Below are positions 22,504 through 35,514 of a stretch of DNA of 35,514 nt, piece after piece (position 1 is the first letter of the stretch; every line of letters begins with the position of its first letter). The DNA lies in the NCBI GenBank assembly GCA_029861655.1, contig JAOTZA010000001.1:1-35514 (forward strand). Reading direction: 5' to 3'. The notes beneath the pieces are model-generated. The model had not been told where the DNA came from. It searched no databases and saw only the letters and a program-made list of their open reading frames with translations. The DNA comes from Acidobacteriota bacterium. GTDB taxonomy: Bacteria; Acidobacteriota; Thermoanaerobaculia; Multivoradales; JAHEKO01. Position numbers and translations under genes: made by a program.

Positions 22504-23174
22504 CGCTGTCTCGCTTTCGCCAGGCCGAGGGTTGACCAGGGGTACTGCTCGGGTCGCGCCAGAATCTCCGCTTCGATCGCAACGACGAACCGCCGGGTGA
22601 GACTTTCTTTGTCGTCGCCTCCGAAGATCGGTACGATCGGCGGTCGAACAACGACTCTGAAGCGTCGCCGTCGTTCCAGAAAAGCAAAAACCGGAAGCGC
22701 CGCGTACGCCTGGTCGAGAGCCCTTGCAGCGGCAAGTGTCGATGCTTTGAAGGGGCGGCCAAGGAAAGGCAACTCTATAGAATGGTCTGCCGCATGCCCG
22801 GACTGCGGCTGGTCGAGCCGGGTCAGATCATGTGGGGTGTCCGAACCACCCTTGTACAGATCGAGCACGGTAGAAACGAGTTCGAAGAGGCCTAGGGAGG
22901 CGCTCAACAGGACCACGCCGCCTCCCGTTCTTTGAGCTTGCTCGATCCTCTCCCAGCCTTCGAACTCGAGCCTCGAACAGAGCCGAACCGGGTCCACGCG
23001 GTCCAGCGCGCGCCGCTCGTCCGCGACACGAGCTTGATGGGAAAAAGAGCGCGAGAGAAGCCGATGTCGAGCCGCGGTCGAGAGATCGGGCAGAGCGGCT
23101 TCGAGGCGTTTGGCGGCGGCTCGGCGAACGGCCCGGGGGGCTGCTCTCGTGATCCGTGCCAGGTGGGCCTTCAT
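22500..23174 (-). CDS. Short LpxL/HtrB-like lipid A acyltransferase homolog (possibly degenerate)
   Basis: 224 aa with ATGA coupling to lpxK. It resembles the middle and C-terminal parts of Lip_A_acyltrans proteins. It lacks the N-terminal anchor, and the expected H(F/L)GNWE position reads SLGLFE. Confidence 0.5.
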   Translation of the reverse strand: MKAHLARITRAAPRAVRRAAAKRLEAALPDLSTAARHRLLSRSFSHQARVADERRALDRVDPVRLCSRLEFEGWERIEQAQRTGGGVVLLSASLGLFELVSTVLDLYKGGSDTPHDLTRLDQPQSGHAADHSIELPFLGRPFKASTLAAARALDQAYAALPVFAFLERRRRFRVVVRPPIVPIFGGDDKESLTRRFVVAIEAEILARPEQYPWSTLGLAKARQR

Positions 23175-24259
23175 GAGGCTTCCGTGTCAAGCTGCGCGAG
23201 ACTCGAGCCGAGCCAGCTCCAGAAAGCCTCTTCGGGTCGCGCCCGCAGCGGCAACTCCGCCAGTGGTGTCTCGAGGCGCCCCAAGAGCTTGACGTGGTCC
23301 TTGCCGGTCGTCACGACCCAGGCGGCTCCGGACTCACGCCACGCCCGTTCGATTTGGCGCAGACTCTCGTCAGGGTAGGAATGATGGTCGGGAAACGCGA
23401 GAGACCCGACGAGTTCGTAGGGGAGGCTTGCGAGAGCCTTGGCCACTCTTCCGGGGCGCGCGATACCGGTCACCAGAAAAACGCTGGCCCCCTCCGGGAC
23501 CGGCTCCTGCCTCTTGTGTGTCGGTGGCAGTACCGTCGTGTAGCTCGAAAAGCTTCGGCCGGTGAAACCGTACTGGGCGAGTCCAGCCGTCAACTCCTCG
23601 GGCCGCCAGTCGGCGGCGTTCTCGTCGGGCCGCCTGCCGGCGGCTTGGGTAGGCCGCTCGGGGAGAGACCAGACGATCGCATTTGCATGGCGCACCGAGG
23701 TGAGTGGCTCGCGCAGCCTCCCGGAAGGCGGCAACCGTCCACCCGCCATCGGATCATCCGGAGGGAAGACCAGGATGTCGATGTCTCGCGCCAGGCGCAC
23801 GTGCGAGAAACCATCATCTAGGAGGAAGACGTCAGGTGTCGTCGGCAGACGTTCGAGTGCCAACTGCCCGGCTCGGTAGCGATCCGCTGCTACCACGACA
23901 CTGACGCCCTGAAGCTCGCCGGCCAGCAGGACCGGTTCGTCCCCAGCCGCCAGCGGCCCCAGAAGAGGGCCGGAACCGGTGCTGACCACCCGGACTCCGC
24001 TGCCGCGGCTGCCGTAGCCGCGAGACAGGATCGCCACCTGCCGGCCCTGGTCGCGGAGCCGGGCGGCGATCGACGCGGTCAACGGCGTTTTGCCAGTGCC
24101 TCCCCAGTGAAGATTGCCGACGCTGATGACCGGCCTTGGCAGGCGAGAGGCACGGCGTCGGTACCAGGCGCGACGCAACCGGTGACCGCCGCCGTAAAGC
24201 CGCTGCCAGGGCGACATGGAAGGTGCCGGCACTTTGTAGGCTGTGGCTTCCGAGTTCAT
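23171..24259 (-). CDS. lpxK: Tetraacyldisaccharide 4'-kinase
   Basis: It has the P-loop context ISVGNLHWGGTGKTP and AILSRGYG. The start is placed at ATG 24259, an ATGA overlap with the waaA stop. The 24260-24442 extension overlaps waaA. Confidence 0.9.
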   Translation of the reverse strand: MNSEATAYKVPAPSMSPWQRLYGGGHRLRRAWYRRRASRLPRPVISVGNLHWGGTGKTPLTASIAARLRDQGRQVAILSRGYGSRGSGVRVVSTGSGPLLGPLAAGDEPVLLAGELQGVSVVVAADRYRAGQLALERLPTTPDVFLLDDGFSHVRLARDIDILVFPPDDPMAGGRLPPSGRLREPLTSVRHANAIVWSLPERPTQAAGRRPDENAADWRPEELTAGLAQYGFTGRSFSSYTTVLPPTHKRQEPVPEGASVFLVTGIARPGRVAKALASLPYELVGSLAFPDHHSYPDESLRQIERAWRESGAAWVVTTGKDHVKLLGRLETPLAELPLRARPEEAFWSWLGSSLAQLDTEAS

Positions 24260-25557
24260 CCCGTATTCTCCGGACGGGGCCTCAGGTATCGCAGCAAGAT
24301 CTCGGAAGTGCGGACCGTTGCGCCGCGATGACGAGCCAGGAGCTCGAGCCCGCGTTGGCCGACGTTTGATCCGGTCGTAGGATCGCTCAAAACTCGCCGC
24401 CAGCCGTTCGCCAGACCCGCGGCGTCTTCGACTCTCAGCCATGCTCGCGCTTCGTCGAAGGTCGCCGCTATCTCTCGAAAGTTCTCCATCGATGGGCCCA
24501 CGACTACCGGAACGCCGAAGCGGGCGGCTTCGAGAGGGTTGTGTCCGCCGGTCGCCACCAGCGTGCCGCCAATGAAAGCCGAGGTTGCCAACCGGTACAC
24601 CGAGGCCAACTCTCCCATGCTGTCGAGCAAGACGACCTGCGGGCTTTTGGCGGCTTCCGTCGCTCGAGGTCGCGCGATTTCGGACCGCCGGAGTAGTCGT
24701 AGCCCGCGCCGTTCGACGAGGTCGCCGATCGAATCCCAGCGTTCGGGGTGCCGTGGCGCCAGAATCAGCAGGGCGTCGACCTCCGAGCTGACATCGGCGA
24801 TGGCGTCCAGAACCAGCTCTTCCTCGCCTCGCATCGTGGAGCCTGCGACCAGAATCGGCCGGCCGCCGGCCACCTGGAGTAGTTCGCCTTCCAGATCGCC
24901 GAGTTTCGCGGGCTCGGTGCTTTCGAACTTGAGATTGCCGGTCACGGTGATGCGGTTTGGCTCGACTCCCAGAGCCCTCAGACGATCGCGGTCTGTTTTC
25001 CCCTGGACAGCGAAGTGGTCGACGGGTGACAGAACGGGCCCGAGAAAACGGCGCAGGCGCACCATCCTGTGGAAGCTCCGATCACTCACTCTGCCGTTGA
25101 TCACGATAACGGGCATACCGCGTTTGCGACACTGGCGCAGAATCAGCGGCCAGAGATCGCCTTCGGCCAGAACGAGCGCTCTGGGCTTGTAGCGGGCAAA
25201 GAACCGCCGGATTGCGAAGCCGAGCTCGAAAGGGAGATAGGTCCGATCCGCAAGCGGGAAACTCGTTTGGGCCAGAGCTTGGCCGGTCGGCGTCACCGTC
25301 GTCACCACCAACCTGTCGCCCATTGCGAGTTCGGGCCATTCGCCGCGCAAGGCCGCCGCGACACCGACCTCGCCGACCGAAACGGCATGTATCCACAGGG
25401 ACGAGCCTTGCCCGGAAGGTGTTGTCGCCGGGTAGAGGCCGAGTCGTGGCTTGAGGCTACGCTGGTAGTGCTTGCCCCGGCTGAGGAGAAGAAACGGTGC
25501 CGCGGCCAGGCTGAACAGGGAGACGGCGATCTGGTAGAGGATCCACATCCGTGACAC
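24256..25557 (-). CDS. waaA: 3-deoxy-D-manno-octulosonic acid (Kdo) transferase
   Basis: It has an N-terminal anchor, LWIHAVSVGEV, and a C-terminal GT-B half (GGTLVATGGHNPLEAA..GVPVVVGP). The start is GTG 25557 or ATG 25548. Confidence 0.9.
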   Translation of the reverse strand: MSRMWILYQIAVSLFSLAAAPFLLLSRGKHYQRSLKPRLGLYPATTPSGQGSSLWIHAVSVGEVGVAAALRGEWPELAMGDRLVVTTVTPTGQALAQTSFPLADRTYLPFELGFAIRRFFARYKPRALVLAEGDLWPLILRQCRKRGMPVIVINGRVSDRSFHRMVRLRRFLGPVLSPVDHFAVQGKTDRDRLRALGVEPNRITVTGNLKFESTEPAKLGDLEGELLQVAGGRPILVAGSTMRGEEELVLDAIADVSSEVDALLILAPRHPERWDSIGDLVERRGLRLLRRSEIARPRATEAAKSPQVVLLDSMGELASVYRLATSAFIGGTLVATGGHNPLEAARFGVPVVVGPSMENFREIAATFDEARAWLRVEDAAGLANGWRRVLSDPTTGSNVGQRGLELLARHRGATVRTSEILLRYLRPRPENTG

Positions 25558-25632
25558 TACGAGCCGGGCGGCGTGCCAGTATAATCCTTTGGCGACAGGA
25601 CGTTAGAGGCGGGCCAGCTGCTAGACGATCCG

Positions 25633-26295
25633 ATGGGCCCGACCGTAAGAATCTTCGGGGAACAGATGCCGCACCTTGTCCACACCACCACCAAACCCGT
25701 TTCCGAGCAGCCGGCCGGCGACCGCGATCTTCTGCTGGCCATTCAACGAGGCGATGAGGAGGCCTTTGCCGAACTTCTCGACCGAAAGACCGGGCCGCTT
25801 CTGGCCCTCACCCATCGGATGGTTTGGGATCGTGAGGAGGCTCGAGATCTCGTCCAAGTGACCTTCCTGAGGGTTTGGGAGCACCGCCACAAGTTCGACG
25901 AACGCTTTAGCCCCAATACCTGGCTCTATAGAATCGCCACCAACCTGGCGATCGATTTTCTACGCGCTAAGCGCACCCGTTTGTCGAAGCTCGAGCCCGT
26001 GCGCCAGCATCTCTACCGGGTCGTCAAGCAACCCGACACGAATCTGGAGGAGATCCTCGAGCGAGACATCCTCTCGGTGCTCCAGGATCTGACATCGGCG
26101 CTGACCGAACGTCAGAGACTCGCCTTTGTTCTGGGGCAGATCGAGGGGTTGAGTACGCGGGAAGTGGCTTCGATTCTGGAGTGCCGGGAATCGACGGTGC
26201 GAAATCATCTCTTTGCGGCGCGCAAGGTCCTGCAGGGTGAACTGCTGCGGCGGTTCCCCGAATACGCCGGCCGCCGGAGGACCGGGAAGCAATGA
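25633..26295 (+). CDS. ECF-type RNA polymerase sigma factor (sigma-70 family group 4)
   Basis: Region 2 is DLVQVTFLRVWEHRHKFDERFSPNTWLYRIATNLAIDFLR. Region 4 is LTERQRLAFVLGQIEGLSTREVASILECRESTVRNHLFAARKVL. An alternative start is ATG 25666. Confidence 0.85.
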   Translation: MGPTVRIFGEQMPHLVHTTTKPVSEQPAGDRDLLLAIQRGDEEAFAELLDRKTGPLLALTHRMVWDREEARDLVQVTFLRVWEHRHKFDERFSPNTWLYRIATNLAIDFLRAKRTRLSKLEPVRQHLYRVVKQPDTNLEEILERDILSVLQDLTSALTERQRLAFVLGQIEGLSTREVASILECRESTVRNHLFAARKVLQGELLRRFPEYAGRRRTGKQ

Positions 26296-26807
26296 CGGCG
26301 TGTCCCGACTGGCAGAGAATCGCGCGCAGCGCGGACCGGTTCCTCGCCGAGGATTGCGCCGATCGCCGGAGGACCTTGCGACACATGGAAGCCTGTCCGA
26401 GTTGCCGCCGGTCGGCGCTCGAGTTGGATCCGACACTGGCGGTCGCGAATCTCCCCGCTGTCGAGGTCTCCAAGTCGGAAATCGAAGCGGTCAAGAGGCA
26501 GGTCCAGGCAATGCGGCGAGTCCGCGCCATCGAAGTCGGAAAACGCCGTCCGGTTCTGTCGCACGTGGCAGTCGTGATGCTGATGGTGGGGCTCGGACTC
26601 TTCCTGCCCGGCAGGGTCATTGACCCTGCCGGTTCTGTCGCCCAAGGCGGCGTGGGTGGCGGAGTCCTTTTTGACGAGGCAAGCCGGGAAGCCGCTTCAT
26701 CACTCGCGCTTGTCGAATCGATCACTCCTTCCACCGCCAGGATCTACCAACTCGATCAAGCAGATTTTCCGATCGTGATGATCGTCGACGAATCGATCGA
26801 TCTCTAG
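26292..26807 (+). CDS. Anti-sigma factor (zf-HC2 type, single TM)
   Basis: It has an ATGA overlap with the sigma gene. The H-x3-C-x2-C motif (HMEACPSC) lies in the N-terminal cytoplasmic part. One TM segment (VLSHVAVVMLMVGLGLFL) is followed by a short extracytoplasmic tail. Confidence 0.75.
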   Translation: MTACPDWQRIARSADRFLAEDCADRRRTLRHMEACPSCRRSALELDPTLAVANLPAVEVSKSEIEAVKRQVQAMRRVRAIEVGKRRPVLSHVAVVMLMVGLGLFLPGRVIDPAGSVAQGGVGGGVLFDEASREAASSLALVESITPSTARIYQLDQADFPIVMIVDESIDL

Positions 26808-26820
26808 ACGTGGTGATCTG

Positions 26821-27537
26821 TTGCCGAGGCCGCAGAGTTTTCTTGCTGTTTGCATCTTTGGCGCTTCTGCAGTGTGGCCTGTTTTATTGGCCGCCCAGAG
26901 CGAGAGTGGTAGAGAAGAAGTGGTGGTACATGCAGTGACGCTTCGACATCAACAGGCGGCCGAGGCGGTGGCGCTGGTCTACCCCATGCTCACCGACGCG
27001 GGCACGGTCGAATTACAGCCGGGCGGTAATACCCTGGTCCTGCGCGACGTGAGTTCATCGGTGGATCGCATACTGCCGTGTCTGCGCCGATTCGACCAGC
27101 CTTCGAGGAGTTTGCGGATCGCGGTTCAGATCGTCAGTGCCGGAGCCGCAGAGGCAGGAAAAGGGCCGGAACCTCAACTCTCGCCTGACGTTTTGGCGCG
27201 GCTACGGGAGCTTCTCCGTTATCGGAGCTACTCGCTTCTCGGCCGGGCCGAGTTGGAAGTGCCGGAAGGCCACGCCACAGCCTACGCAGTGGGTGAGGAA
27301 TATCAAGTCGATTTCCGTCTTGGCAAGCTGCTCGACGGGAGACGGCTCAACCTTCAGGGCTTCCGGGTCTTGCGTCAGGCGGATGACGGCGATCTCAAGC
27401 CGCTCATCCACACCAATCTCAACCTGAGCCTGGACCAGCCGCTGGTGTTGGGTCTGGCCAAGACCGAATCGAGCGACCGCGCCCTGATGGTTGTTCTCCA
27501 ATTCCTCGACATGAAGACGCGAACGGCGAGGAGGTAG
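26821..27537 (+). CDS. Small secreted secretin-like protein (one Secretin_N/N1-like domain plus a compact secretin-core-like region)
   Basis: 238 aa with a TTG start and a signal peptide (FLAVCIFGASAVWPVLLAAQSE). By eye it aligns with the large secretin in this window. NTLVLRDVSSSVDRILPCLRRFDQP matches NAIILRDTADKVKVAERIIDTIDKA. LLGRAELEVPEGHATAYAVGEE matches LLASPQVRISDGETASLTIGDS. Confidence 0.6.
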   Translation: MPRPQSFLAVCIFGASAVWPVLLAAQSESGREEVVVHAVTLRHQQAAEAVALVYPMLTDAGTVELQPGGNTLVLRDVSSSVDRILPCLRRFDQPSRSLRIAVQIVSAGAAEAGKGPEPQLSPDVLARLRELLRYRSYSLLGRAELEVPEGHATAYAVGEEYQVDFRLGKLLDGRRLNLQGFRVLRQADDGDLKPLIHTNLNLSLDQPLVLGLAKTESSDRALMVVLQFLDMKTRTARR

Positions 27538-27540
27538 CCG

Positions 27541-28758
27541 GTGGAGTTCGTCTGCACTCTCGGTACCCCGCAGGGCCGGGTGATCGAGGAGGTCCACGAG
27601 GCAGGTTCGGAGGAGGCGGCGCGCAAGGAACTCGTTCGCCAGGGGTATCACGTCTTCAAGATCCGTCGCGGCGGGGCGCTCGGGTCGTTTTCCCTTCCGC
27701 GTTTTGGGCGCCGCGGACGACGCATCTCGGAAGAGACACTCTTGCTTTTCAACCAGGAACTCGCGGCGCTGCTGCGGGCAGGGCTACCCATTCTCCAGGC
27801 GCTCGAGATCATGCTGCGACGTCAGCGAGAACCCCTCTTCCACGAGGTGCTGACTCAGGTGCGTTCGAAGGTGGAAAATGGCGCCGATCTTTCGGATGCG
27901 TTCGAAGATTTTGCCGATCTTCTTCCGCGGATCTATCCGCAAACCCTCAAGGCCGGTGAACGGAGTGGCGAACTCGAGCAGGTTATCCGTCGTTTTGTTC
28001 GCTATCAATCGCTGGTTACGTCAACTCGCCGCAAGGTGGTTTCTGCACTCGTCTATCCGGCGCTCTTGGTCGCCCTCTCGTTGGCCCTGATCGGCGTGAT
28101 GACCGTTTTTGTGGTTCCCAAGTTCAGTGATTTCTTCTCCAACATGGAGTCGGATCTGCCGTTGATCACGCGGGTCACGGTGGCGGTGTCGGCTTTCTTG
28201 GGCGACAACTGGCTATGGATGTCACTGGCGGCCCTGGCGGTCGTGATCGGCGCGACGTCTCTGAGCCGTTCGCGCCGCGGCGCGCAGATGCTCGGAGCCT
28301 TGAGGCTCAGGCTGCCGCTTCTTGGGAATCTCTTTCAGAAAATGGCTCTCTCCGAGTTCAGTCGTGCCCTCTCAACGCTACTCTCCGGCGGCATTCCGCT
28401 GGTATCGGCCCTCGAGAGCTCGGTCGAGGCGGTCAGTAACGTGCACATTCGCAGGCAACTGGAGCCGACGGTGGCAGCGGTCCGAGAAGGCAATGCGCTT
28501 CACGCCTCCCTCGAAGCCAGCGGAGTGGTCCCGGAGGTTGTGATTGAGATGGCTACCGTCGGGGAAGAGACGGGAGACCTCGATACGATGCTCACCAACG
28601 CCTCCGAGTTCCTGGATGAGGAGGTCGAAACAAGCTTGCAGCGGATCCTGACATTGCTAGAACCCCTGCTACTCGTGATGATGGGTGTCATCGTGGCGAT
28701 CCTATTGGTTTCCATCTACCTTCCTCTCTTTAGCGCCTTGGGGCAGGTGCGGTCTTGA
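27541..28758 (+). CDS. pilC: GspF/PilC-family inner-membrane platform protein
   Basis: 405 aa. GTG start with AGGAGG 7 nt upstream. It has two GspF-type repeats (FNQELAALLRAGLPILQALEIM...; FSRALSTLLSGGIPLVSALES...) and three TM segments. Confidence 0.9.
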   Translation: MEFVCTLGTPQGRVIEEVHEAGSEEAARKELVRQGYHVFKIRRGGALGSFSLPRFGRRGRRISEETLLLFNQELAALLRAGLPILQALEIMLRRQREPLFHEVLTQVRSKVENGADLSDAFEDFADLLPRIYPQTLKAGERSGELEQVIRRFVRYQSLVTSTRRKVVSALVYPALLVALSLALIGVMTVFVVPKFSDFFSNMESDLPLITRVTVAVSAFLGDNWLWMSLAALAVVIGATSLSRSRRGAQMLGALRLRLPLLGNLFQKMALSEFSRALSTLLSGGIPLVSALESSVEAVSNVHIRRQLEPTVAAVREGNALHASLEASGVVPEVVIEMATVGEETGDLDTMLTNASEFLDEEVETSLQRILTLLEPLLLVMMGVIVAILLVSIYLPLFSALGQVRS

Positions 28759-28794: not shown

Positions 28795-30429
28795 ATGGAT
28801 GAGCCCTTGACCACCGTGTGGAATGGTTCGGAGCCGCCGAAGGCGGACCCGGAGGAAGAGCGCCGGAGCGCCCGGCGGCTGGCGGAGTCGTGCGGGCTCG
28901 AATTCGTGGAGATGGACGATTTTCGGATCGACAACGATCTCTTCCGCTCGGTGCCGTTCGAGTTGATGCTGCGGTACGAGTTTCTTCCCGAGCGCCAGGA
29001 GGACGACCGCTTGTCGCTGGTCATGGCCGATCCTTCGGACATCACCAAGCTCGATGAGCTCGAGCTACTGATCGGCCAGCCGCTGGAGGTCAAGGTCGGT
29101 GCCCGCGGCGTGATCGAAGAGATCCTGGAGAAGTCTGAGAGCGCTCAGCGCGTGCTCGACGAGGCCACCGAGGACTTCCGCATCCAGCTTGTTCAGGACG
29201 ACGGCAACAGCGACGAAGTGCTGTCCATAGACCGTATCAGCGCGGACTCGAGCCCGATCATCAAGTTGGTCGACTCGACAGTGCTCAACGCCATCCAGAG
29301 ACGCGCGAGTGATATCCACATCGAGACCCGAGACAGCGAGGTGGTTGTCAAGTACCGAATCGATGGCGTCCTGTACCAGGCGATGGAGCCGATCGACAAG
29401 GCGCATCACCAGACCATCGTCAGCCGAATCAAAGTGATGTCAGAGCTCGATATCGCCGAGAAACGTGTGCCCCAGGACGGTCGTTTCAAGGTGCGCTACC
29501 AGGGCCGCACCATCGACTTCCGTGTTTCGATCATGCCTTCTGTGCACGGGGAAGATTGCGTCGTCCGTATTCTCGACAAAGAGTCGATCAGCGAGGAGTT
29601 CAAGAACCTTCGTCTGACAGTTCTCGGTTTGGATGACGACACGGTTCACAAGTTCCGAAAGTTCATTCGTGAGCCCTACGGGATGGTGCTGGTGACCGGG
29701 CCGACCGGGTCGGGTAAGACAACGACACTCTACGCCTGTCTTTCCGAGATCCAGTCCTCGGAGGACAAGATCATCACGATCGAAGATCCGGTCGAGTACC
29801 AGCTCAAGGGGATCACCCAGATCCCTGTCAACGAGAAGAAGGGTCTCACCTTCGCCCGTGGCCTACGTTCGATCCTTCGTCACGACCCGGACAAGATCAT
29901 GGTGGGTGAGATCCGCGATCAGGAGACCGCGGCGATCGCCGTTCAATCAGCCCTCACCGGTCACTTGGTCTTCACAACGGTCCATGCGAACAACGTCGTT
30001 GACGTACTGGGCCGGTTTCTCAACATGAAGGTGGATCTGTACAATTTTGTCTCGGCGCTCAACTGTGTTCTGGCGCAGCGCCTGGTGCGGAGAATCTGCG
30101 AGCATTGCAGGGCAGCCGTGGTGGTTTCCGACCAGCTGCTCGAGGAGAGCGGCTTGACACGGGAGCAATGTGAGGACGTGGACTTTTTCGAAGGACGTGG
30201 TTGTGTCGAATGCAGTGGAACCGGATTCCACGGCCGCACGGCCATTTCCGAGCTACTGGACCTTTCGGACCGGATTCGAGAGTTGATCCTCGAGCGCCGG
30301 CCGGCGTCGGAGATCAAGCGGGCAGCAGGTGAGGAAGGGATGATCTTTCTGCGGGAATCGGCCCTGAAGAGAGTGTTCGACGGAGTAACTACACTACGTG
30401 AGATCAATAAAGTTACCTTCGTGGATTAG
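28795..30429 (+). CDS. pilB: GspE/PilB-family secretion/pilus extension ATPase
   Basis: It has a T2SSE_N-like N-terminus, Walker A VTGPTGSGKTTT, Asp box IITIEDPVEY, Walker B IMVGEIRD, His box LTGHLVFTTVHAN, and the tetracysteine CEHC...CVEC. Confidence 0.9.
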   Translation: MDEPLTTVWNGSEPPKADPEEERRSARRLAESCGLEFVEMDDFRIDNDLFRSVPFELMLRYEFLPERQEDDRLSLVMADPSDITKLDELELLIGQPLEVKVGARGVIEEILEKSESAQRVLDEATEDFRIQLVQDDGNSDEVLSIDRISADSSPIIKLVDSTVLNAIQRRASDIHIETRDSEVVVKYRIDGVLYQAMEPIDKAHHQTIVSRIKVMSELDIAEKRVPQDGRFKVRYQGRTIDFRVSIMPSVHGEDCVVRILDKESISEEFKNLRLTVLGLDDDTVHKFRKFIREPYGMVLVTGPTGSGKTTTLYACLSEIQSSEDKIITIEDPVEYQLKGITQIPVNEKKGLTFARGLRSILRHDPDKIMVGEIRDQETAAIAVQSALTGHLVFTTVHANNVVDVLGRFLNMKVDLYNFVSALNCVLAQRLVRRICEHCRAAVVVSDQLLEESGLTREQCEDVDFFEGRGCVECSGTGFHGRTAISELLDLSDRIRELILERRPASEIKRAAGEEGMIFLRESALKRVFDGVTTLREINKVTFVD

Positions 30430-31366
30430 GGGATTGGCGGGTCTAAAACCCTCCGCCGTGCCACCTCACGTGTTTGCGGTCGATGGCGACCGTCTTCGCT
30501 ACGCCCGGTTCCACCCGGACAGGCGGGGGCTCGAGCTGCGCGAGTACTGGAGTGAGGATCTCGAGCCCGGTCTGTTCCCCGAGGGGCAACTCGCCGGTCC
30601 GGCCCGCGACGCTCACCGTCTCGACGAAGCGCTGAAAGCCCTGCTCGAACGATCGAGCCTGACCGTGCACGAGGCCTCCCTCGTACTGCCGGATCGTTGG
30701 CTGCGATTGGCTTCGACCGAAGCCGCTGACGTGCCCCGCAAGGGGCGAGATCGGGCTGAGGTTATTCGGTTCAAGCTGAAACGACTGGTGCCCTTTCGGG
30801 TCGAGGATCTGCGCGTCGCGGATCTCGAGGCTGCCGGGACGGACGACAGCGGGGCGCGCCTGCTGCTTGGCTTTGCTTCCGAGGCTCTGCTCACTCAACT
30901 CGAGGATGTCTTTGCCGGAAACGGGGTCAGAATCGGCCAACTCTCCAACGAAGGTCTGTCGCTTCTTGTCGCCTTGCAAGGTGCGCTTGCCGGTCAGGAG
31001 ACCGGAGTTCTGCTCCACGCCACCAACGAGAGCTACAGCGTGATCGTGGCGCGGCGTGGTGCGCCGATTCTCCATCGGTTCAAGTCGCTAACCCAGACGG
31101 AACCGAATTGGGACCTGGTGGTGCGCGACCTCAAGCTCACTCGTCGATTCGTCGTGTCACAATCGCAAGTTGTGCCCTTGGCCGAGGTCACTTTTGTCGG
31201 TTCTCCCGAGGTGGAGGCGGGCTGGAGCCGAGCGGTGGAGAGGGCGTTCGAAGTGCCCGTGCGCAGCGTGGCGAGCGAGTGGGAGGAGATACCCGGAACG
31301 GTGGAGGGTGTTTCGCCCGTGCAGGCGGCGCCCCTTCTGGGCGCGGCCGCCCGGACGATCAGGTAA
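30398..31366 (+). CDS. pilM: PilM-like (actin-fold, GspL-cytoplasmic-domain-like) assembly protein
   Basis: Its position is immediately upstream of the PilN-like gene. The pattern is typical of PilM-family proteins (LVLPDRWLRL..., FKLKRLVPFRVEDL, LLGFASEALLTQLEDVFAGNGVRIGQL, VLLHATNESYSVIV). The start is ambiguous: GTG 30398 (32-nt overlap with pilB) or TTG 30434. Confidence 0.65.
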   Translation: MRSIKLPSWIRGLAGLKPSAVPPHVFAVDGDRLRYARFHPDRRGLELREYWSEDLEPGLFPEGQLAGPARDAHRLDEALKALLERSSLTVHEASLVLPDRWLRLASTEAADVPRKGRDRAEVIRFKLKRLVPFRVEDLRVADLEAAGTDDSGARLLLGFASEALLTQLEDVFAGNGVRIGQLSNEGLSLLVALQGALAGQETGVLLHATNESYSVIVARRGAPILHRFKSLTQTEPNWDLVVRDLKLTRRFVVSQSQVVPLAEVTFVGSPEVEAGWSRAVERAFEVPVRSVASEWEEIPGTVEGVSPVQAAPLLGAAARTIR

Positions 31367-31371
31367 TCGGC

Positions 31372-32034
31372 ATGAACCGCAATGATCTAAATCTTTCACG
31401 GCGACCGTTTGCCAACCTGCGCCCGCTCAAGCGGGTCTCGCTGCTGCTCTGGTTGGCTGGCGGCCTGATGCTGGTGCTCAACGTACGGAATTACTGGAGT
31501 CACTTCAGCGGCGAGAACCAGGCACGCTCCCGAATGTTGGAGATCGAGCGTGAGCTCGGCGCCGAGAAAGACGCCGTAGGAGAGCTTAGGCGTGAGGTCG
31601 GTGGGCTCAATCTCGAGACGCTCAACGAGCGCAGCCGGTTTGTCAATGAGAAAATCGAGCAACGCACTTTTTCGTGGAGCTCGCTCTTCGATCGATTGAC
31701 CGAGGCGCTGCCCAACGACGTGCGCCTATCGAGCTTGACGCCCAAGTTCGACAGGAAGAGAAGATCAGGACGCGCGGGAGAGAACCTCGGGATGGGGGAA
31801 GTGGGCTTGGAGATTTCGGGGGCCGCCAAGAATGATGAGGCTTTGCTTGCGCTTGTGGACGCTTTCTTCGAACACGGTTCCTTCAGAGAGCCGGATTTGC
31901 AGAGCGAAGACAGAGGAGACGATGGTCTCCTGGAGTTCGAGCTTTCCGTGATCTACCGGCCAGGAGCCAGTGCCGAGACCGACCCTGAGCCGCCCGGCGG
32001 CGTATCGCCGGCCAGCGCGGAGGCCGCGCCTTGA
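31372..32034 (+). CDS. pilN: PilN-like bitopic assembly protein
   Basis: The start is placed at ATG 31372. The listed ORF from 31108 overlaps pilM. It has the N-terminal LNLSRRPF motif (the INLLP-type PilM-binding peptide), one TM segment, a coiled-coil, and a C-terminal ferredoxin-like region. Confidence 0.7.
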   Translation: MNRNDLNLSRRPFANLRPLKRVSLLLWLAGGLMLVLNVRNYWSHFSGENQARSRMLEIERELGAEKDAVGELRREVGGLNLETLNERSRFVNEKIEQRTFSWSSLFDRLTEALPNDVRLSSLTPKFDRKRRSGRAGENLGMGEVGLEISGAAKNDEALLALVDAFFEHGSFREPDLQSEDRGDDGLLEFELSVIYRPGASAETDPEPPGGVSPASAEAAP

Positions 32035-32639
32035 GTTTCGAGCCGGGCGTCTGGGGGCGTAACGCAAGGATCTGGGTCCCGGGACTGGTTTTCTTGCTGT
32101 TGAACGGCGCTCTATTGCTGGCCTACCGGGTTGCTCTCGCAGAAGAAGCCGATATGGGGCGGGCAAGGCTCGCCAGGCGTGCGGACGAACTGGACGCGCT
32201 CCGGGAGGAGAGGCGCTCTCTCGCGGATGTGCTGGAGCGAGCGGCGGAAATCGAGAAAGGCTTGGATGATTTCTACACCCTGCGCCTCGCGACGGAGAAT
32301 GTTGCCCTCACAAGGATCATCGCCGAGGTCAAAGATCTGTCGCGCCGGGCCGGGTTGGTGCCGGCGCAGATCGACTACGCCAAGGAGACCTTCAAAGAGG
32401 AAGACTTGTTGCGTCGCTCGATCGAGTTTCCGGTCGATGGGGACTATGCGGCGCTTCGCCGGCTGGTCAACTTTCTCGAACTCTCGGACTCGTTTTTGGT
32501 GCTGGAGAGTGTCGGTCTGCGCGGCGAGAACGAAAACACGCTGGCGCTCAACATCTCGCTACAGATTGCGACGTTTTTTGCGACCGGATCCACACACTCG
32601 CGAGGCGTCCGGGGCGAGGCCGCGGAGACGACCGAATGA
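32031..32639 (+). CDS. pilO: PilO/GspM-like bitopic assembly protein
   Basis: It has a TTGA overlap with pilN. One TM segment (IWVPGLVFLLLNGALLLAY) is followed by a coiled-coil and a C-terminal domain ending ...LALNISLQIATFF, typical of PilO/GspM. Confidence 0.65.
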   Translation: MSFEPGVWGRNARIWVPGLVFLLLNGALLLAYRVALAEEADMGRARLARRADELDALREERRSLADVLERAAEIEKGLDDFYTLRLATENVALTRIIAEVKDLSRRAGLVPAQIDYAKETFKEEDLLRRSIEFPVDGDYAALRRLVNFLELSDSFLVLESVGLRGENENTLALNISLQIATFFATGSTHSRGVRGEAAETTE

Positions 32640-33193
32640 GCGGTGAACGGCGTCGGGGAATTCTCCTGGTGGCTCTGGCTGCGCTCCTCGCGTTTGCAGC
32701 CGTGCGTTTTGGTGGAGCGCTGCTCTCGGGCCGTGGTGGCACAGGGTTCTCTCCTCCGGACAGCCCCGCAGACAATCAATCGAGAATCGATCTTCCGCAG
32801 TTCGTAGAGCTGCGTTTGGGTGAGCTTGAGAACAAACCAGCAGAATTCAATCCTGGTCGCGATCCGTTTGGTTTTTATACCCCGCCGCCCCCGCCGCCCC
32901 CTCCGGCGCCCCCGCGCCAAAAAGCTCCAACAGGCCGACCGCAACCAAAACCGGCGAGCACGACTCCTCAAAAACCCAAGCCGCCACCTGTTACGGTTAC
33001 GTTTCTGGGCAGTTTTGGGCCTGTGGACAGACGAATAGCAGTGTTCACGGACGGCAATGATCTCTACAATGCGCGAGTGGGTGACGTCGTCAAGGAGCAT
33101 TTTGTCGTCGACAACATCGGTTTTGAGTCCTCTGATTTGAAATACGTCAACTTTCCCGAGGAGCCACCGGCACGATTGGCGGTCGGCGGTTGA
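32636..33193 (+). CDS. PilP/GspC-like secretin-contacting protein (TM-anchored, poly-proline linker, C-terminal beta domain)
   Basis: It has an ATGA overlap with pilO, an N-terminal TM anchor with no lipobox, a linker PPPPPPPPAPP...KPKPPP, and the C-terminal VTFLGSFGPVDRRIAVFTDGNDLYNARVGDVVKEHFVVDNI resembling the PilP/GspC HR domain. Confidence 0.55.
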   Translation: MSGERRRGILLVALAALLAFAAVRFGGALLSGRGGTGFSPPDSPADNQSRIDLPQFVELRLGELENKPAEFNPGRDPFGFYTPPPPPPPPAPPRQKAPTGRPQPKPASTTPQKPKPPPVTVTFLGSFGPVDRRIAVFTDGNDLYNARVGDVVKEHFVVDNIGFESSDLKYVNFPEEPPARLAVGG

Positions 33194-33195
33194 GA

Positions 33196-35514
33196 ATGAC
33201 TCGAGAGATCCATGGAGTGGTTGTGAGAAAGAAGACAACGGTCTCTGTCCTGTGCCTACTGGGGCTTCTCGTCCTCGTCGGTTGCTCGGGCCATCAAGCC
33301 CTGCGCGCGGCACGCCAAGCCGAGCTGGTTGGCGACTGGGATCAGGCGGTCCTCAAGTATCTCGAGCTCTCCAATCGCTATCCGGACAGAGTGGAGTACC
33401 GGACCGGTCTGTTGCGCTCCAAGATCCGCGCCTCGCAGGGCCATTTTGAGAAGGGCAAGAAGTTTGTGGAGGCCGGCGCTCTCGAGCGTGGGTTTGCGGA
33501 GTACCAGCAGGCCGTGCAGCTCGATACCACCAACCAGTATGCGCAGATCGAGATGGAGAAACTGCGGGAAGTTCTGTTGCGGGACGAAGAGAGTCGCGCG
33601 GCGCCGGGTAATTTGAAGGACATCAAGGCGCGCAACCGAGGTGCGCGAGCGCAGCCGCCGGAGTTGAACCCCCGTTCGATCGAGCCGATCTCGCTCGAGT
33701 TCCCTAAACCGGTATCAGTCTTCGATATCTACAAGGCTCTCGGCCGCGCCTTCGGAATCAACGTGCTATTCGACCCCAAGTTGCGAGATCAGCAGATCGC
33801 GATCGAGCTGCGCGACGTCGTGGCGCAGGATGCCCTCGAGATCCTCATGCGTACCGCGAGCCACTTCTACAAGGTGGTCGACGAGCATTCGATCATCGTC
33901 GTCGAGGACAACCCGCAAAATCGCCGCAACTATGAGGATCTGGTCATCCAGACCTTCTTTCTATCCAACGCCGAGACGAAGGATGTTCTGACCATGCTAC
34001 GAAGCCTGGTGGGGGCGAAGAATATTGCTTCCTCGGATCAGCTCAACGCGATCATCCTGCGGGATACGGCCGACAAGGTGAAAGTCGCGGAGCGGATCAT
34101 CGACACCATCGACAAAGCGCGTGGCGAGGTCGTTGTCGACGTGGAGCTGCTGCAGATCAACACCAGTGTGCTCCAGGATCTCGGTGTGCGGCTCTCCGAG
34201 TACTCGGTGACGCAGCGACTCGATCAGCCCGAAGGTGGGATTAGGGTTTCCGACCTCGAGTTCATCAACCAGGGTAACTGGTTTCTGAATATACCCAGTT
34301 TTGTCTACAACTTCATGAAGACAAGCTCCGAAGCCGAGCTGTTGGCCAGCCCACAGGTGCGGATCAGCGACGGCGAGACCGCCTCGCTGACGATTGGCGA
34401 CAGCGTGCCGATTCCGGTCACTAGTTTCAATACCTCCCAGACAGTGGGTGGCAATATCGTTCCGCTGACTTCCTTCCAGTACCGAGACGTCGGTATCCGG
34501 GTCGAGATCGAGCCGCGGATTCATCACAACCGAGAGGTGACCTTGAAGATCACCGTCGAGGTGAGCAACCTCGGTGAGTCGATTCAGGCTGGAACTCAAG
34601 AACAGCCGGTCATCGGTACGCGGAATTTCGAATCGACGATCCGGCTCAAGAACGGTGAGACAAACTTTCTCGCGGGTCTTATCCGGACCGATGAGTCGCG
34701 CGACCAGGTCGGAGTCCCGGGTCTCTCCGACGTGCCAGTGCTGGGGCGGCTCTTTTCCAACAAAGGAACCGACAGGAGACGGACGGATCTCGTGCTGACC
34801 CTGACGCCGCACATCATCCGGACCGCCGATATCTCCGAGGAAGATCTGCTTCCAATCTGGGTCGGGACGGAAGCCAACATCACCTTCCGTGGCGGTAGTC
34901 CTCGCGTTGAATCAGAGGTGGAAGGCCCCTTCGAGCGCGAGGACGAGACCGACGCCGAACGGATTCGCGAAATGATCCGACGCAGGATCCAGAACCTTCC
35001 CAGAGGATTGCAGAATGAGGACACCGAGGAAGAGGATAAAGCGCCACCGGGGGTCGATCTGACGCCGGCGGCAGCGCCCTCCGATCCGTTCCGAAGCGAT
35101 GATGACGGAGAAGATGAGGACGATGACGGGGACCGAGCCTCGCTCGAACCGACATCGTTGATTTTTGTGCCCAGCGACAGAGGGATCTCCGACGAGATCT
35201 CGGTGGCGTCACTCAGCGCCGCTGCCGATGGCGAGGCGGTTTTGACCACGCCGGTGCGACTCCGACTGGCGCCGGCGAGTCTTCAGATCGGGCTTGGTGA
35301 CGAGCTCGATGTCACGCTCGAGATCCAGTCGGACGAAGCGGTTGCGCATCTGCCGGTAACTCTGGGTTTCGACCCGCGGGTGCTATCCGTGGTGCAGGTT
35401 TCGGGCGGTGATTTCCTTGACTCCCAACGCTCCGAGATCCTCGCCGATACTTCGGCCGCCGGGCGGCTTGTTCTGGGTGCCAGCCAGCTCGGAGAGGGCG
35501 GCGGTGTCATCGGC
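33196..35514 (+). CDS. Secretin (GspD/PilQ family) lipoprotein with N-terminal TPR-like module and C-terminal cohesin-like domain; 3' end outside window
   Basis: This ORF is not in the supplied track because it has no stop. My translation gives 773 open codons to base 35514. The likely true start is GTG 33223 (GGAG 7 nt upstream), giving VRKKTTVSVLCLLGLLVLVGC (lipobox LVGC). The secretin core includes LLASPQVRISDGETASLTIGDSVPIP, GIRVEIEPRIHHNREVTLKITVEVS, and GETNFLAGLIRTDES...VPGLSDVPVLGRLFS...DLVLTLTPHII. After the core come an acidic linker and LQIGLGDELDVTLEIQSDEAVAHLPVTLGFDPRVLSVVQVSGGDFL. Confidence 0.85.
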   Translation, partial: MTREIHGVVVRKKTTVSVLCLLGLLVLVGCSGHQALRAARQAELVGDWDQAVLKYLELSNRYPDRVEYRTGLLRSKIRASQGHFEKGKKFVEAGALERGFAEYQQAVQLDTTNQYAQIEMEKLREVLLRDEESRAAPGNLKDIKARNRGARAQPPELNPRSIEPISLEFPKPVSVFDIYKALGRAFGINVLFDPKLRDQQIAIELRDVVAQDALEILMRTASHFYKVVDEHSIIVVEDNPQNRRNYEDLVIQTFFLSNAETKDVLTMLRSLVGAKNIASSDQLNAIILRDTADKVKVAERIIDTIDKARGEVVVDVELLQINTSVLQDLGVRLSEYSVTQRLDQPEGGIRVSDLEFINQGNWFLNIPSFVYNFMKTSSEAELLASPQVRISDGETASLTIGDSVPIPVTSFNTSQTVGGNIVPLTSFQYRDVGIRVEIEPRIHHNREVTLKITVEVSNLGESIQAGTQEQPVIGTRNFESTIRLKNGETNFLAGLIRTDESRDQVGVPGLSDVPVLGRLFSNKGTDRRRTDLVLTLTPHIIRTADISEEDLLPIWVGTEANITFRGGSPRVESEVEGPFEREDETDAERIREMIRRRIQNLPRGLQNEDTEEEDKAPPGVDLTPAAAPSDPFRSDDDGEDEDDDGDRASLEPTSLIFVPSDRGISDEISVASLSAAADGEAVLTTPVRLRLAPASLQIGLGDELDVTLEIQSDEAVAHLPVTLGFDPRVLSVVQVSGGDFLDSQRSEILADTSAAGRLVLGASQLGEGGGVIG

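What the first reader, a model, noticed from the sequence alone, without database searches (positions are those of the whole stretch)
26821..27537. 238-aa 'mini-secretin': signal peptide, one N1-like domain and a strongly shortened secretin core
This small ORF shares collinear similarity with the large secretin at 33196-35514 that can be followed by eye.
- N1 domain: VVHAVTLRHQQAAEAVALVYPMLTDAGTVELQPGGNTLVLRDVSSSVDRILPCLRRFDQP against VIQTFFLSNAETKDVLTMLRSLVGAKNIASSDQLNAIILRDTADKVKVAERIIDTIDKA.
- Start of core: SLRIAVQIV against EVVVDVELL.
- Gate-region motif: LLGRAELEVPEGHATAYAVGEE against LLASPQVRISDGETASLTIGDS.
- Terminal strand: ALMVVLQF against DLVLTLTP.

Secretins I know of are roughly 400 aa or longer. 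A 238-aa protein that keeps the landmarks in order is unusual. It could be a minimal pore subunit, a partner that co-assembles with or caps the large secretin, or a decoy/pilot. Its position as the first machine gene, directly after the anti-sigma factor, suggests a dedicated role.
Basis: seen in the sequence. Interest (0 to 1): 0.7.

Follow-up and report, generated by a model that had tools for sequence, protein, structure and literature searches.

The report
Secretin-derived periplasmic partner of anti-sigma factor
This small exported protein carries a real secretin N-domain and a possibly secretin-derived β-domain, but it is most likely a periplasmic sensing partner of the neighbouring anti-sigma factor that controls a pilus/secretion machine, not a miniature outer-membrane pore.

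Summary
The 238-aa ORF is real and belongs to a conserved family of about 240-aa proteins in Thermoanaerobaculia (about 400 clusters at 50% identity).

**Secretin-like parts**
- Residues ~30-96 are a genuine secretin N1/N3-type domain.
- The next strand matches the first strand of the secretin core.
- Residues ~110-230 do not match the Secretin family (PF00263, 0 of 50 members) or any PDB sequence.
- Modelled alone, this part does not retrieve secretins by fold.
A secretin-derived, hairpin-deleted core is therefore plausible but unproven.

**Context**
- All 21 related loci keep the order ECF sigma, anti-sigma, this gene, PilC/B/M/N/O, PilP-like, lipoprotein secretin.
- A conserved ECF-type promoter precedes the sigma gene.
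- In orthologous operons (at least 8 clusters plus P0199 and P0237) the β-domain has no N-domain. It is fused to the periplasmic end of the anti-sigma factor, roughly 20-85 residues after its membrane helix.
- Unfused anti-sigma factors carry a conserved ~35-residue C-terminal tail. The fusions have lost it or let it degenerate.

**Verdict**
It is probably the periplasmic sensor or co-regulator of the anti-sigma factor, not a pore.

The parts
26821..27537 (+). The 238-aa ORF: a periplasmic protein with a signal peptide, a secretin N1/N3-type domain and a beta-domain.
   Evidence: The AF2 model has mean pLDDT 88.3.
26821..26898 (+). Predicted signal peptide (residues 1-26, probable cleavage after ...LLAA). 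It is not a lipoprotein.
   Evidence: Read directly from the sequence. Modelled as a low-confidence helix 5-26. The family consensus is 'L.AQ', and the Cys at position 11 is not conserved.
26920..27108 (+). Secretin_N (PF03958) N1/N3-type alpha/beta domain, residues 34-96.
   Evidence: The model has strands 34-40, 62-65 and 71-77 and helices 46-56 and 78-91.
27109..27144 (+). Strand beta1 (SLRIAVQIVSAG). It aligns with the first strand of the secretin core, which follows the last N-domain.
   Evidence: The fused variants keep it.
27109..27510 (+). Beta-domain, residues 97-230: 8 strands and 1 helix. It has no Pfam family and is possibly a hairpin-deleted secretin core. In orthologous operons this is the module fused to the anti-sigma factor.
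26292..26807 (+). Anti-sigma factor: an H-x3-C-x2-C zinc motif, one TM helix, and a start codon overlapping the stop of the sigma gene.
   Evidence: (sequence), weak HMM hits, alignment.
26703..26804 (+). Conserved C-terminal periplasmic tail of the anti-sigma factor (LALVESITPSTARIYQLDQADFPIVMIVDESIDL). It is the candidate docking site for the 238-aa protein.
   Evidence: it is the only conserved periplasmic segment in 18 unfused anti-sigma factors. It is absent or degenerate in the fused variants.
25666..26295 (+). ECF sigma factor. The probable true start is the ATG at 25666. The listed ORF starts at 25633, inside the promoter.
25621..25647 (+). Conserved ECF-type promoter motif, CTAGAC-N17-CGTA.
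   Evidence: 1 match in the window against 0.05 expected; the same position in 17 loci. A second copy lies between pilC and pilB in L012, L014, L015 and L016.
27541..28758 (+). PilC/GspF platform protein.
   Evidence: PF00482, E 7e-53.
28795..30429 (+). PilB/GspE ATPase with an MshEN N-terminal domain.
30398..33193 (+). PilM-like (30398-31366), PilN (31372-32034), PilO-like (32031-32639) and a PilP-position protein (32636-33193).
   Evidence: the PilN hit; the others are assigned by position; synteny.
33196..35514 (+). Large lipoprotein secretin: LVGC lipobox, TPR region, N-domain, Secretin core and a C-terminal extension. It runs off the end of the window.
   Evidence: The full-length orthologue is 823 aa in L001.

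Best explanation
The ORF encodes a soluble periplasmic protein. It is the third component of an ECF sigma / anti-sigma module that sits at the head of, and drives, a type IV filament operon (a T2SS/T4P hybrid).

**Shown**
- It has a signal peptide.
- It has a secretin N1/N3-type domain followed by a strand homologous to the first secretin-core strand.
- It has a conserved 8-stranded beta-domain with no known family.
- Its gene always follows the sigma and anti-sigma genes and precedes the machine genes.
- In orthologous operons the beta-domain is the periplasmic domain of the anti-sigma factor itself.

**Inferred**
- In the window's version the beta-domain is held on the anti-sigma factor non-covalently.
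- Most likely the N-domain binds the conserved ~35-residue C-terminal tail of the anti-sigma factor. The argument is that the N-domain is missing from every fused variant, and in those variants the tail is absent or degenerate.
- The beta-domain senses a periplasmic cue linked to the machine or its secretin.
- That cue changes the stability or conformation of the anti-sigma factor, for example by exposing its C-terminus to a site-1 protease, as with RseB/RseA and FoxA/FoxR.
- The released sigma factor then acts on the CTAGAC-N17-CGTA promoter.

**Origin**
The protein is probably descended from a secretin, but it does not work as a pore.
For: **Reality and conservation**
- establish the ORF and the family.

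**Secretin-type N-domain and first strand**
-.

**Synteny**
- All 21 GTDB loci keep sigma, anti-sigma, this gene, PilC, PilB, PilM, PilN, PilO, PilP-like and secretin in that order.
- The gap to the anti-sigma gene is 13 bp.

**Fusions**
- Of 267 family proteins, 3 are anti-sigma plus beta-domain without the N-domain.
- A search with P0221 finds 8 full-length fused clusters at 41-56% identity from NCBI, JGI, ENA and Logan.
- Their loci are the orthologous operon, with LpxK and KdtA upstream, the same machine genes and a secretin 61% identical, and with no separate copy of the gene.
- The tether from the TM helix to beta1 is about 20-45 residues in P0221 and P0268-P0273, and up to about 85 in P0199/P0274.

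**Anti-sigma tail**
- It is conserved in the 18 unfused proteins and lost or degenerate in the fusions.

**Promoter**
- A conserved ECF-type promoter lies upstream of the sigma gene, and in four loci a second copy lies before pilB.

**Precedent from the literature**
- Anti-sigma FoxR/PupR periplasmic regions consist of an antiparallel beta-subdomain plus a secretin-N-like STN domain.
- That STN domain pairs with a homologous domain of an outer-membrane partner, and the partner protects the anti-sigma factor from proteolysis (PMC11637429).
Against: - No binding, localisation or expression data exist, and no multimer prediction could be run.
- The fusions may represent only one or two evolutionary events, so co-loss of the N-domain and the tail is weak statistically.
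- The identification of the anti-sigma factor rests on the zinc motif, topology and position. The HMM hits are below threshold.
- The N-domain could instead dock on the secretin's N-ring.
- The full-length model's top 31 structural matches are all secretins, so a structural role in the secretin complex is not excluded.
- A regulatory role and a structural role are not mutually exclusive.
Confidence: 0.55

Rival explanations
1. It is a true mini-secretin. The protein oligomerises through its N-domain and a shortened secretin core into a ring. The ring would form a small channel, or stack on, cap or co-assemble with the large secretin as a structural subunit.
For: - The full-length AF2 model's top 31 PDB matches are all secretins (E 2e-7 to 2e-5, best f1 pIV). 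Structures containing only N-domains reach about 1e-2.
- The N-domain and first-strand homology are solid.
- The collinear motif chain to the secretin core scores 51.2 against 36.8 +/- 5.8.
- The gene is conserved as the first gene before the machine genes.
Against: - No PF00263 match in 0 of 50 members.
- The C-terminal profile finds nothing among PDB sequences.
- The C-terminal model alone finds no secretin in the PDB or BFVD.
- The top 150 profile hits in 1.84 billion representatives are all short family members, with no bridge to long secretins.
- The core has about 134 residues where canonical secretins have about 240, and I infer that the lip, gate and S-domain regions are absent.
- The strands are rich in charged residues.
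- Orthologous operons tether this domain to the inner-membrane anti-sigma factor and dispense with the N-domain.
Confidence: 0.15
2. It is a periplasmic structural adaptor of the machine with no signalling role. Its N-domain would add an extra ring under the secretin, or link the secretin to the PilMNOP platform, much as BfpG/TcpQ hoop the T4b secretin. On this reading the anti-sigma fusions are incidental membrane anchoring.
For: - Secretin N-domains are ring-building, self-associating modules. BfpG, a small periplasmic protein with an N0-like fold, binds BfpB 17:17 (PMC12531336).
- The large secretin here has only N0 and one N-domain.
- Synteny with the machine genes is strict.
Against: - The fused variants lose precisely the N-domain, the supposed ring builder, yet the secretin's periplasmic part is unchanged at 61% identity.
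- Fusion specifically to the anti-sigma factor, at least 8 clusters, is hard to call incidental.
- The gene sits on the regulator side of the operon.
Confidence: 0.15
3. It is a pilotin or chaperone that escorts secretin monomers to the outer membrane, or a periplasmic plug that seals the secretin before the platform docks.
For: - Small periplasmic proteins that bind secretins exist, for example pilotins and the SlkA/SlkB plugs (PMC13392014).
- A secretin-like N-domain plus first strand could pair with an unassembled protomer.
Against: - It is not a lipoprotein.
- The large secretin is itself a lipoprotein with a fused TPR region, which may make a pilotin unnecessary.
- There is no similarity to known pilotins or to Slk proteins.
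- A version fused to the anti-sigma factor could not escort anything to the outer membrane.
Confidence: 0.07

Closest known systems
Secretins (PilQ, GspD, pIV): the N1/N3 domain (PF03958) and the start of the secretin core
   Same: - Residues 30-108 are homologous to the last N-domain plus the first core strand of PilQ-type secretins.
- Weak collinear motifs continue through the rest of the core.
- The full-length model retrieves only secretins.
   Different: - No PF00263 match.
- The core is about 110 residues shorter.
- The C-terminal fold is not recognised as secretin-like.
- It has no N0 domain and no S-domain, is not a lipoprotein, and has no indication of outer-membrane insertion.
- The beta-domain occurs fused to an inner-membrane anti-sigma factor.
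Cell-surface signalling anti-sigma factors (FecR, PupR, FoxR) with their TonB-dependent transducers
   Same: - An ECF sigma factor and a single-pass anti-sigma factor.
- The periplasmic module combines an antiparallel beta-domain with a secretin-N-like domain.
- The module pairs with a homologous domain of an outer-membrane protein, and the partner protects the anti-sigma factor from proteolysis (PMC11637429).
   Different: - The secretin-like domain here is N1/N3-type (PF03958), not STN. It precedes the beta-domain and lies on a separate polypeptide.
- There is no FecR or STN Pfam match.
- The associated outer-membrane protein is a secretin of a type IV filament machine, not a TonB-dependent transducer.
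RseB (of rpoE-rseA-rseB) and CnrX (of cnrYXH): periplasmic third components of ECF modules
   Same: - The gene order is sigma, anti-sigma, periplasmic beta-rich protein.
- The proposed role is to bind the periplasmic part of the anti-sigma factor and gate its proteolysis. The comparison rests on my own knowledge of these systems.
   Different: - There is no sequence or fold similarity.
- The regulon here appears to be the adjacent filament machine, not a general envelope-stress regulon.
BfpG/TcpQ, small secretin-domain-like partners of T4b secretins
   Same: - A small exported protein, not a lipoprotein, built on a secretin N-type fold and encoded with its secretin (PMC12531336).
   Different: - BfpG is a single N0-like domain that hoops the N3 ring.
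- The protein here has an N1/N3-type domain plus a 134-residue beta-domain, and is linked to an anti-sigma factor.

Membership tests
Secretin (PF00263, outer-membrane channel family) | Significant match to the Secretin C-domain profile. | tested here: not met
   No PF00263 hit for the ORF or for any of 50 family members at E up to 10. The C-terminal profile has no hit among PDB sequences.
Secretin (PF00263, outer-membrane channel family) | At least one Secretin_N (PF03958) periplasmic domain immediately before the core. | tested here: met
   The window copy scores 27.1 bits against a cut-off of 28.2 (E 4.8e-06). All 50 members match, best E 6.4e-11. The profile matches PilQ at E 8e-09, including the first core strand.
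Secretin (PF00263, outer-membrane channel family) | Double-walled beta-sandwich core fold with gate hairpins and a lip. | tested here: inconclusive
   The full-length model's top 31 PDB hits are secretins, but at TM 0.40-0.48 and rmsd about 20 A. The C-terminal model alone (pLDDT 87.9) gives no secretin hit in the PDB or BFVD. Relaxed-gap hhalign chains the motifs collinearly at p about 0.01.
Secretin (PF00263, outer-membrane channel family) | Outer-membrane location as an SDS- and heat-resistant 12-17-mer. | not testable with these tools
   No multimer prediction or experiment was available. Indirectly against it, orthologous operons tether the beta-domain to the TM helix of the anti-sigma factor, by about 20-45 residues in most variants.
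Periplasmic co-regulator of an ECF sigma/anti-sigma pair (works like RseB, CnrX) | Encoded in the same operon immediately after the sigma and anti-sigma genes. | tested here: met
   True in 21 of 21 loci. The intergenic gap is 13 bp. A conserved ECF-type promoter lies upstream.
Periplasmic co-regulator of an ECF sigma/anti-sigma pair (works like RseB, CnrX) | Physical association with the periplasmic part of the anti-sigma factor. | tested here: inconclusive
   The evidence is of the gene-fusion kind only: at least 8 fused clusters in orthologous operons, plus a conserved anti-sigma tail that the fusions have lost. Binding itself was not testable.
Periplasmic co-regulator of an ECF sigma/anti-sigma pair (works like RseB, CnrX) | Homology to RseB/MucB or CnrX. 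| tested here: not met
   No such Pfam or NCBIfam hit and no such fold match.
Cell-surface signalling (FecR/PupR-type) module | FecR (PF04773) or STN (PF07660) domains and a TonB-dependent transducer partner. | tested here: not met
   No FecR or STN hits. None of the operon genes scanned is a TonB-dependent receptor. Only the logic is shared, namely a secretin-N-like domain in the anti-sigma periplasmic module.
BfpG/TcpQ-type secretin partner | A single N0-like domain that binds the secretin N3 ring 1:1. | tested here: inconclusive
   By profile the domain here is N1/N3-type, and a large extra beta-domain is present. BfpG itself did not appear among the fold hits, although the BfpB chain of 9u5s did. 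Binding was not testable.

The most novel reading that the evidence does not exclude
The protein is a degenerate secretin protomer used as a molecular mimic. Its secretin-derived N-domain or beta-domain would pair with the cognate secretin, either unassembled protomers or the periplasmic face of the ring. That would report the secretin's assembly or occupancy state to the ECF sigma factor through the anti-sigma factor. The result would be a cell-surface-signalling-like pathway built on a secretin instead of a TonB-dependent transducer, with the machine autoregulating its own operon.
Probability: 0.25. Interest if true: 0.8.

Novelty: new variant of a known kind. Interest (0 to 1): 0.55.

Why it matters
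**What would be new**
- If the main reading holds, this is a previously undescribed way of wiring a type IV filament or secretion machine to an ECF sigma factor.
- The link is a dedicated periplasmic protein, or in sister lineages a domain of the anti-sigma factor, that appears to be carved out of a secretin.

**Why that is useful**
- It would extend the cell-surface-signalling principle beyond TonB-dependent transducers. In that principle, homologous secretin-N-like domains pair between an outer-membrane protein and an anti-sigma factor.
- It gives a concrete, testable case of assembly-state feedback for secretin machines.

**Annotation**
- The work defines a beta-domain with no Pfam family, present in about 400 clusters at 50% identity in Thermoanaerobaculia.
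- It cautions against annotating this family as a secretin.

Tried and rejected
**C-terminal half as a recognisable secretin domain**
- Direct HMM detection failed with Pfam, NCBIfam and PDB sequence searches.
- A C-terminal-only profile against 1.84 billion representative proteins returned only short family members among the 150 hits shown. The weak tail of the 400 hits could not be inspected.
- The C-terminal-only AF2 model gave no secretin and nothing at E < 1e-3 against the PDB or BFVD.
- Standard hhalign of the C-terminal half against a secretin-core profile gave E 0.05, indistinguishable from block shuffles. One run of the shuffles timed out.

**Ideas rejected**
- Lipoprotein or pilotin: the Cys is not conserved and has no lipobox context.
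- Homology to SlkA/B plugs, RseB or the FecR beta-subdomain: no hits.
- Fusions as assembly artefacts: they form 8 independent clusters from four data sources, on contigs up to 29 kb, with intact operons.

**Searches that led nowhere**
- The first attempt to fetch related loci with the 50-sequence alignment failed for lack of conserved stretches. A 14-sequence alignment worked.
- Literature searches for 'mini-secretin', 'truncated secretin' and similar terms found no precedent.

Full report
**Observation**

The ORF at 26821-27537 (+) is present as described. It has a TTG start 13 bp after the stop of the preceding gene and encodes 238 aa. Its N-terminus is hydrophobic and ends ...LLAA/QSE, which reads as a type I signal peptide. 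The Cys at position 11 is not conserved in relatives, so it is not a lipoprotein. The ORF is a real gene. A word-indexed search found 331 homologues of about 220-280 aa, conserved over the full length and named, where named at all, 'hypothetical' or 'secretin N-terminal domain-containing protein' from Thermoanaerobaculia. A profile of the C-terminal half alone found 400 clusters at 50% identity, 229 of them at E < 1e-10. The large ORF at 33196-35514 is a true secretin (PF00263 E 2.8e-42).

**What is secretin-like**

Residues ~30-96 are a Secretin_N (PF03958) domain.
- The window copy scores 27.1 bits, just under Pfam's cut-off of 28.2.
- All 50 aligned members match, best E 6.4e-11.
- TIGR02517 GspD matches residues 21-107.
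- The family profile matches the N-domain that immediately precedes the core in PilQ of Neisseria and Myxococcus at E 8e-09. That alignment runs on through the first core strand, '...ieariveA' against 'levqivrA'.

**What is not demonstrably secretin-like**

Residues ~110-230 fail every direct test.
- None of the 50 members hits PF00263.
- The C-terminal profile hits no PDB sequence.
- Its top 150 hits in 1.84 billion representatives are all short family members.

AF2 models are confident for the full length (pLDDT 88.3) and for the C-terminal half alone (pLDDT 87.9). They show one helix and eight strands. The full-length model retrieves only secretins as its top 31 PDB hits (E 2e-7 to 2e-5, best f1 pIV). 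Those matches have TM 0.40-0.48 and rmsd about 20 A, while entries containing only N-domains reach about 1e-2. The C-terminal model alone retrieves no secretin and nothing at E < 1e-3 in the PDB or BFVD.

- GLAKTESSDR against GLIRTDESRD in the large secretin;
- the final strand, RALMVVLQF, which I compared by eye with RNLMVFLRP of GspD-type secretins.

That alignment scores 51.2. Arbitrary block shuffles give 33.4 +/- 4.1, with 0 of 60 reaching it. Permutations of intact secondary-structure elements give 36.8 +/- 5.8, with 1 of 90 reaching it. Reversed decoys give 28-30.

I read this as suggestive evidence, p about 0.01, that the beta-domain descends from a secretin core that lost its long hairpins. 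It is not proof.

**Context**

All 21 species-representative loci that encode a relative keep the same gene order:
- ECF sigma factor
- anti-sigma factor
- this gene
- PilC/GspF
- PilB/GspE (with an MshEN domain)
- PilM
- PilN
- PilO
- a PilP-position protein
- the secretin

In L001 and L024 three pseudopilin genes follow the secretin. Upstream of the sigma gene lies a conserved motif, CTAGAC-N17-CGTA. It occurs once in the window, at 25621-25647, against 0.05 expected. It sits at the same position in 17 loci, and in four loci a second copy lies between pilC and pilB. It looks like an autoregulated ECF promoter driving the cluster. That is inference from conservation and from the general form of ECF promoters.

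**The decisive lead**

Among 267 family proteins, three have an anti-sigma N-terminus joined directly to the beta-domain, with no Secretin_N domain. A search with one of them, P0221, found eight full-length clusters of this architecture at 41-56% identity, from NCBI, JGI, ENA and Logan. Their contigs carry the orthologous operon: LpxK and KdtA upstream as in the window, then the ECF sigma factor, the fusion, T2SSF, T2SSE, the platform genes, a secretin 61% identical to the L001 orthologue, and pilins. None carries a separate copy of the gene.

In these proteins beta1 begins about 20-45 residues after the TM helix in P0221 and P0268-P0273. The spacing reaches about 85 residues in P0199/P0274 and more in P0237. 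Two of them lack the helix of the beta-domain. A domain tethered to the inner membrane by the short linkers cannot be an outer-membrane pore. The fusion is classical evidence that the beta-domain works with the anti-sigma factor.

The 18 unfused anti-sigma factors vary in their periplasmic part except for a strongly conserved C-terminal tail of about 35 residues...P.IE.LDRP.ARIYQL.EEDLSVVMIVDESLDV. That tail is missing in the P0221-type fusions and degenerate in P0199, P0274 and P0237. The N-domain is missing from all the fusions as well. This suggests that the N-domain and the tail form the non-covalent link that the fusion replaces.

**Mechanism proposed**

Shown:
- an exported two-domain protein;
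- strict linkage to an ECF module and to a type IV filament machine;
- the beta-domain serving as the periplasmic domain of the anti-sigma factor in sister lineages.

Inferred:
- the protein docks on the anti-sigma tail;
- its beta-domain perceives a periplasmic state linked to the machine or the secretin;
- that controls anti-sigma stability and so the release of the sigma factor onto the operon's own promoter.

The nearest functional analogues are FoxR/PupR-type cell-surface signalling and, from my own knowledge, RseB/RseA. In the former, a secretin-N-like STN domain of the anti-sigma factor pairs with the homologous domain of an outer-membrane protein, which protects the anti-sigma factor from proteolysis (PMC11637429). 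BfpG/TcpQ show that small proteins with a secretin-domain fold can be dedicated secretin partners (PMC12531336).

**Rivals**

A genuine mini-secretin ring, a purely structural adaptor, and a pilotin or plug are less likely for the reasons above, but they are not excluded. No multimer prediction or experiment was available. The most novel reading still open is that the protein is a degenerate secretin protomer acting as a molecular mimic that reports secretin assembly to the sigma factor.

**Verdict**

The family is uncharacterised and its C-terminal domain has no Pfam family. The arrangement is a new variant of known ECF/anti-sigma signalling logic attached to a secretin machine. Interest is moderate, 0.55.

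Noticed in passing
window 25621-25647, with 25578-25585: A conserved ECF-type promoter motif, CTAGAC-N17-CGTA, overlaps the ATG at 25633. The sigma factor therefore probably starts at the ATG at 25666. A conserved housekeeping-type AGTATAAT box lies about 40 bp upstream. In L012, L014, L015 and L016 a second copy of the ECF motif sits between pilC and pilB.
   Followed up: partly
window 26703-26804: The last ~34 residues of the anti-sigma factor (…ARIYQLDQADFPIVMIVDESIDL) are the only conserved periplasmic segment across 18 loci, and they always end the protein. This could be a docking strand pair or a C-terminal recognition signal for a protease.
   Followed up: partly
window 33196-35514; L001 16471-18942; L024 15458-17386: The large secretin is a lipoprotein (lipobox LVGC or LASC). 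It has an N-terminal TPR region, possibly a built-in pilotin-like part, and a C-terminal extension of about 190-260 aa with a weak cohesin-like hit. The extension is absent from the 642-aa orthologue in operons of the fused anti-sigma type.
   Followed up: partly
L001 18939-20643; L024 17418-19114: Three prepilin-type genes with N_methyl signals follow the secretin, just beyond the end of the window. The first resembles a GspG-type pseudopilin by eye, so the machine looks like a T2SS/T4P hybrid with a PilMNOP platform. No PilT homologue is in the cluster.
   Followed up: no
window 28795-30429: The PilB/GspE ATPase carries an N-terminal MshEN domain (E 2.4e-17), a domain known elsewhere to bind c-di-GMP. 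That hints at a second regulatory input.
   Followed up: no
window 32636-33193: The 185-aa protein at the PilP position has a signal anchor, a proline-rich linker and a small C-terminal beta-domain, but no Pfam or NCBIfam match.
   Followed up: no
window 23171-25557 (- strand): LpxK-like and KdtA-like LPS core genes are divergently transcribed from the sigma gene. The loci of the fused variant conserve this neighbourhood (L024-L026). The conserved sequence GGATCCACAT suggests that the KdtA-like gene starts at the ATG whose complement is at 25546-25548, rather than at the listed GTG at 25557.
   Followed up: no
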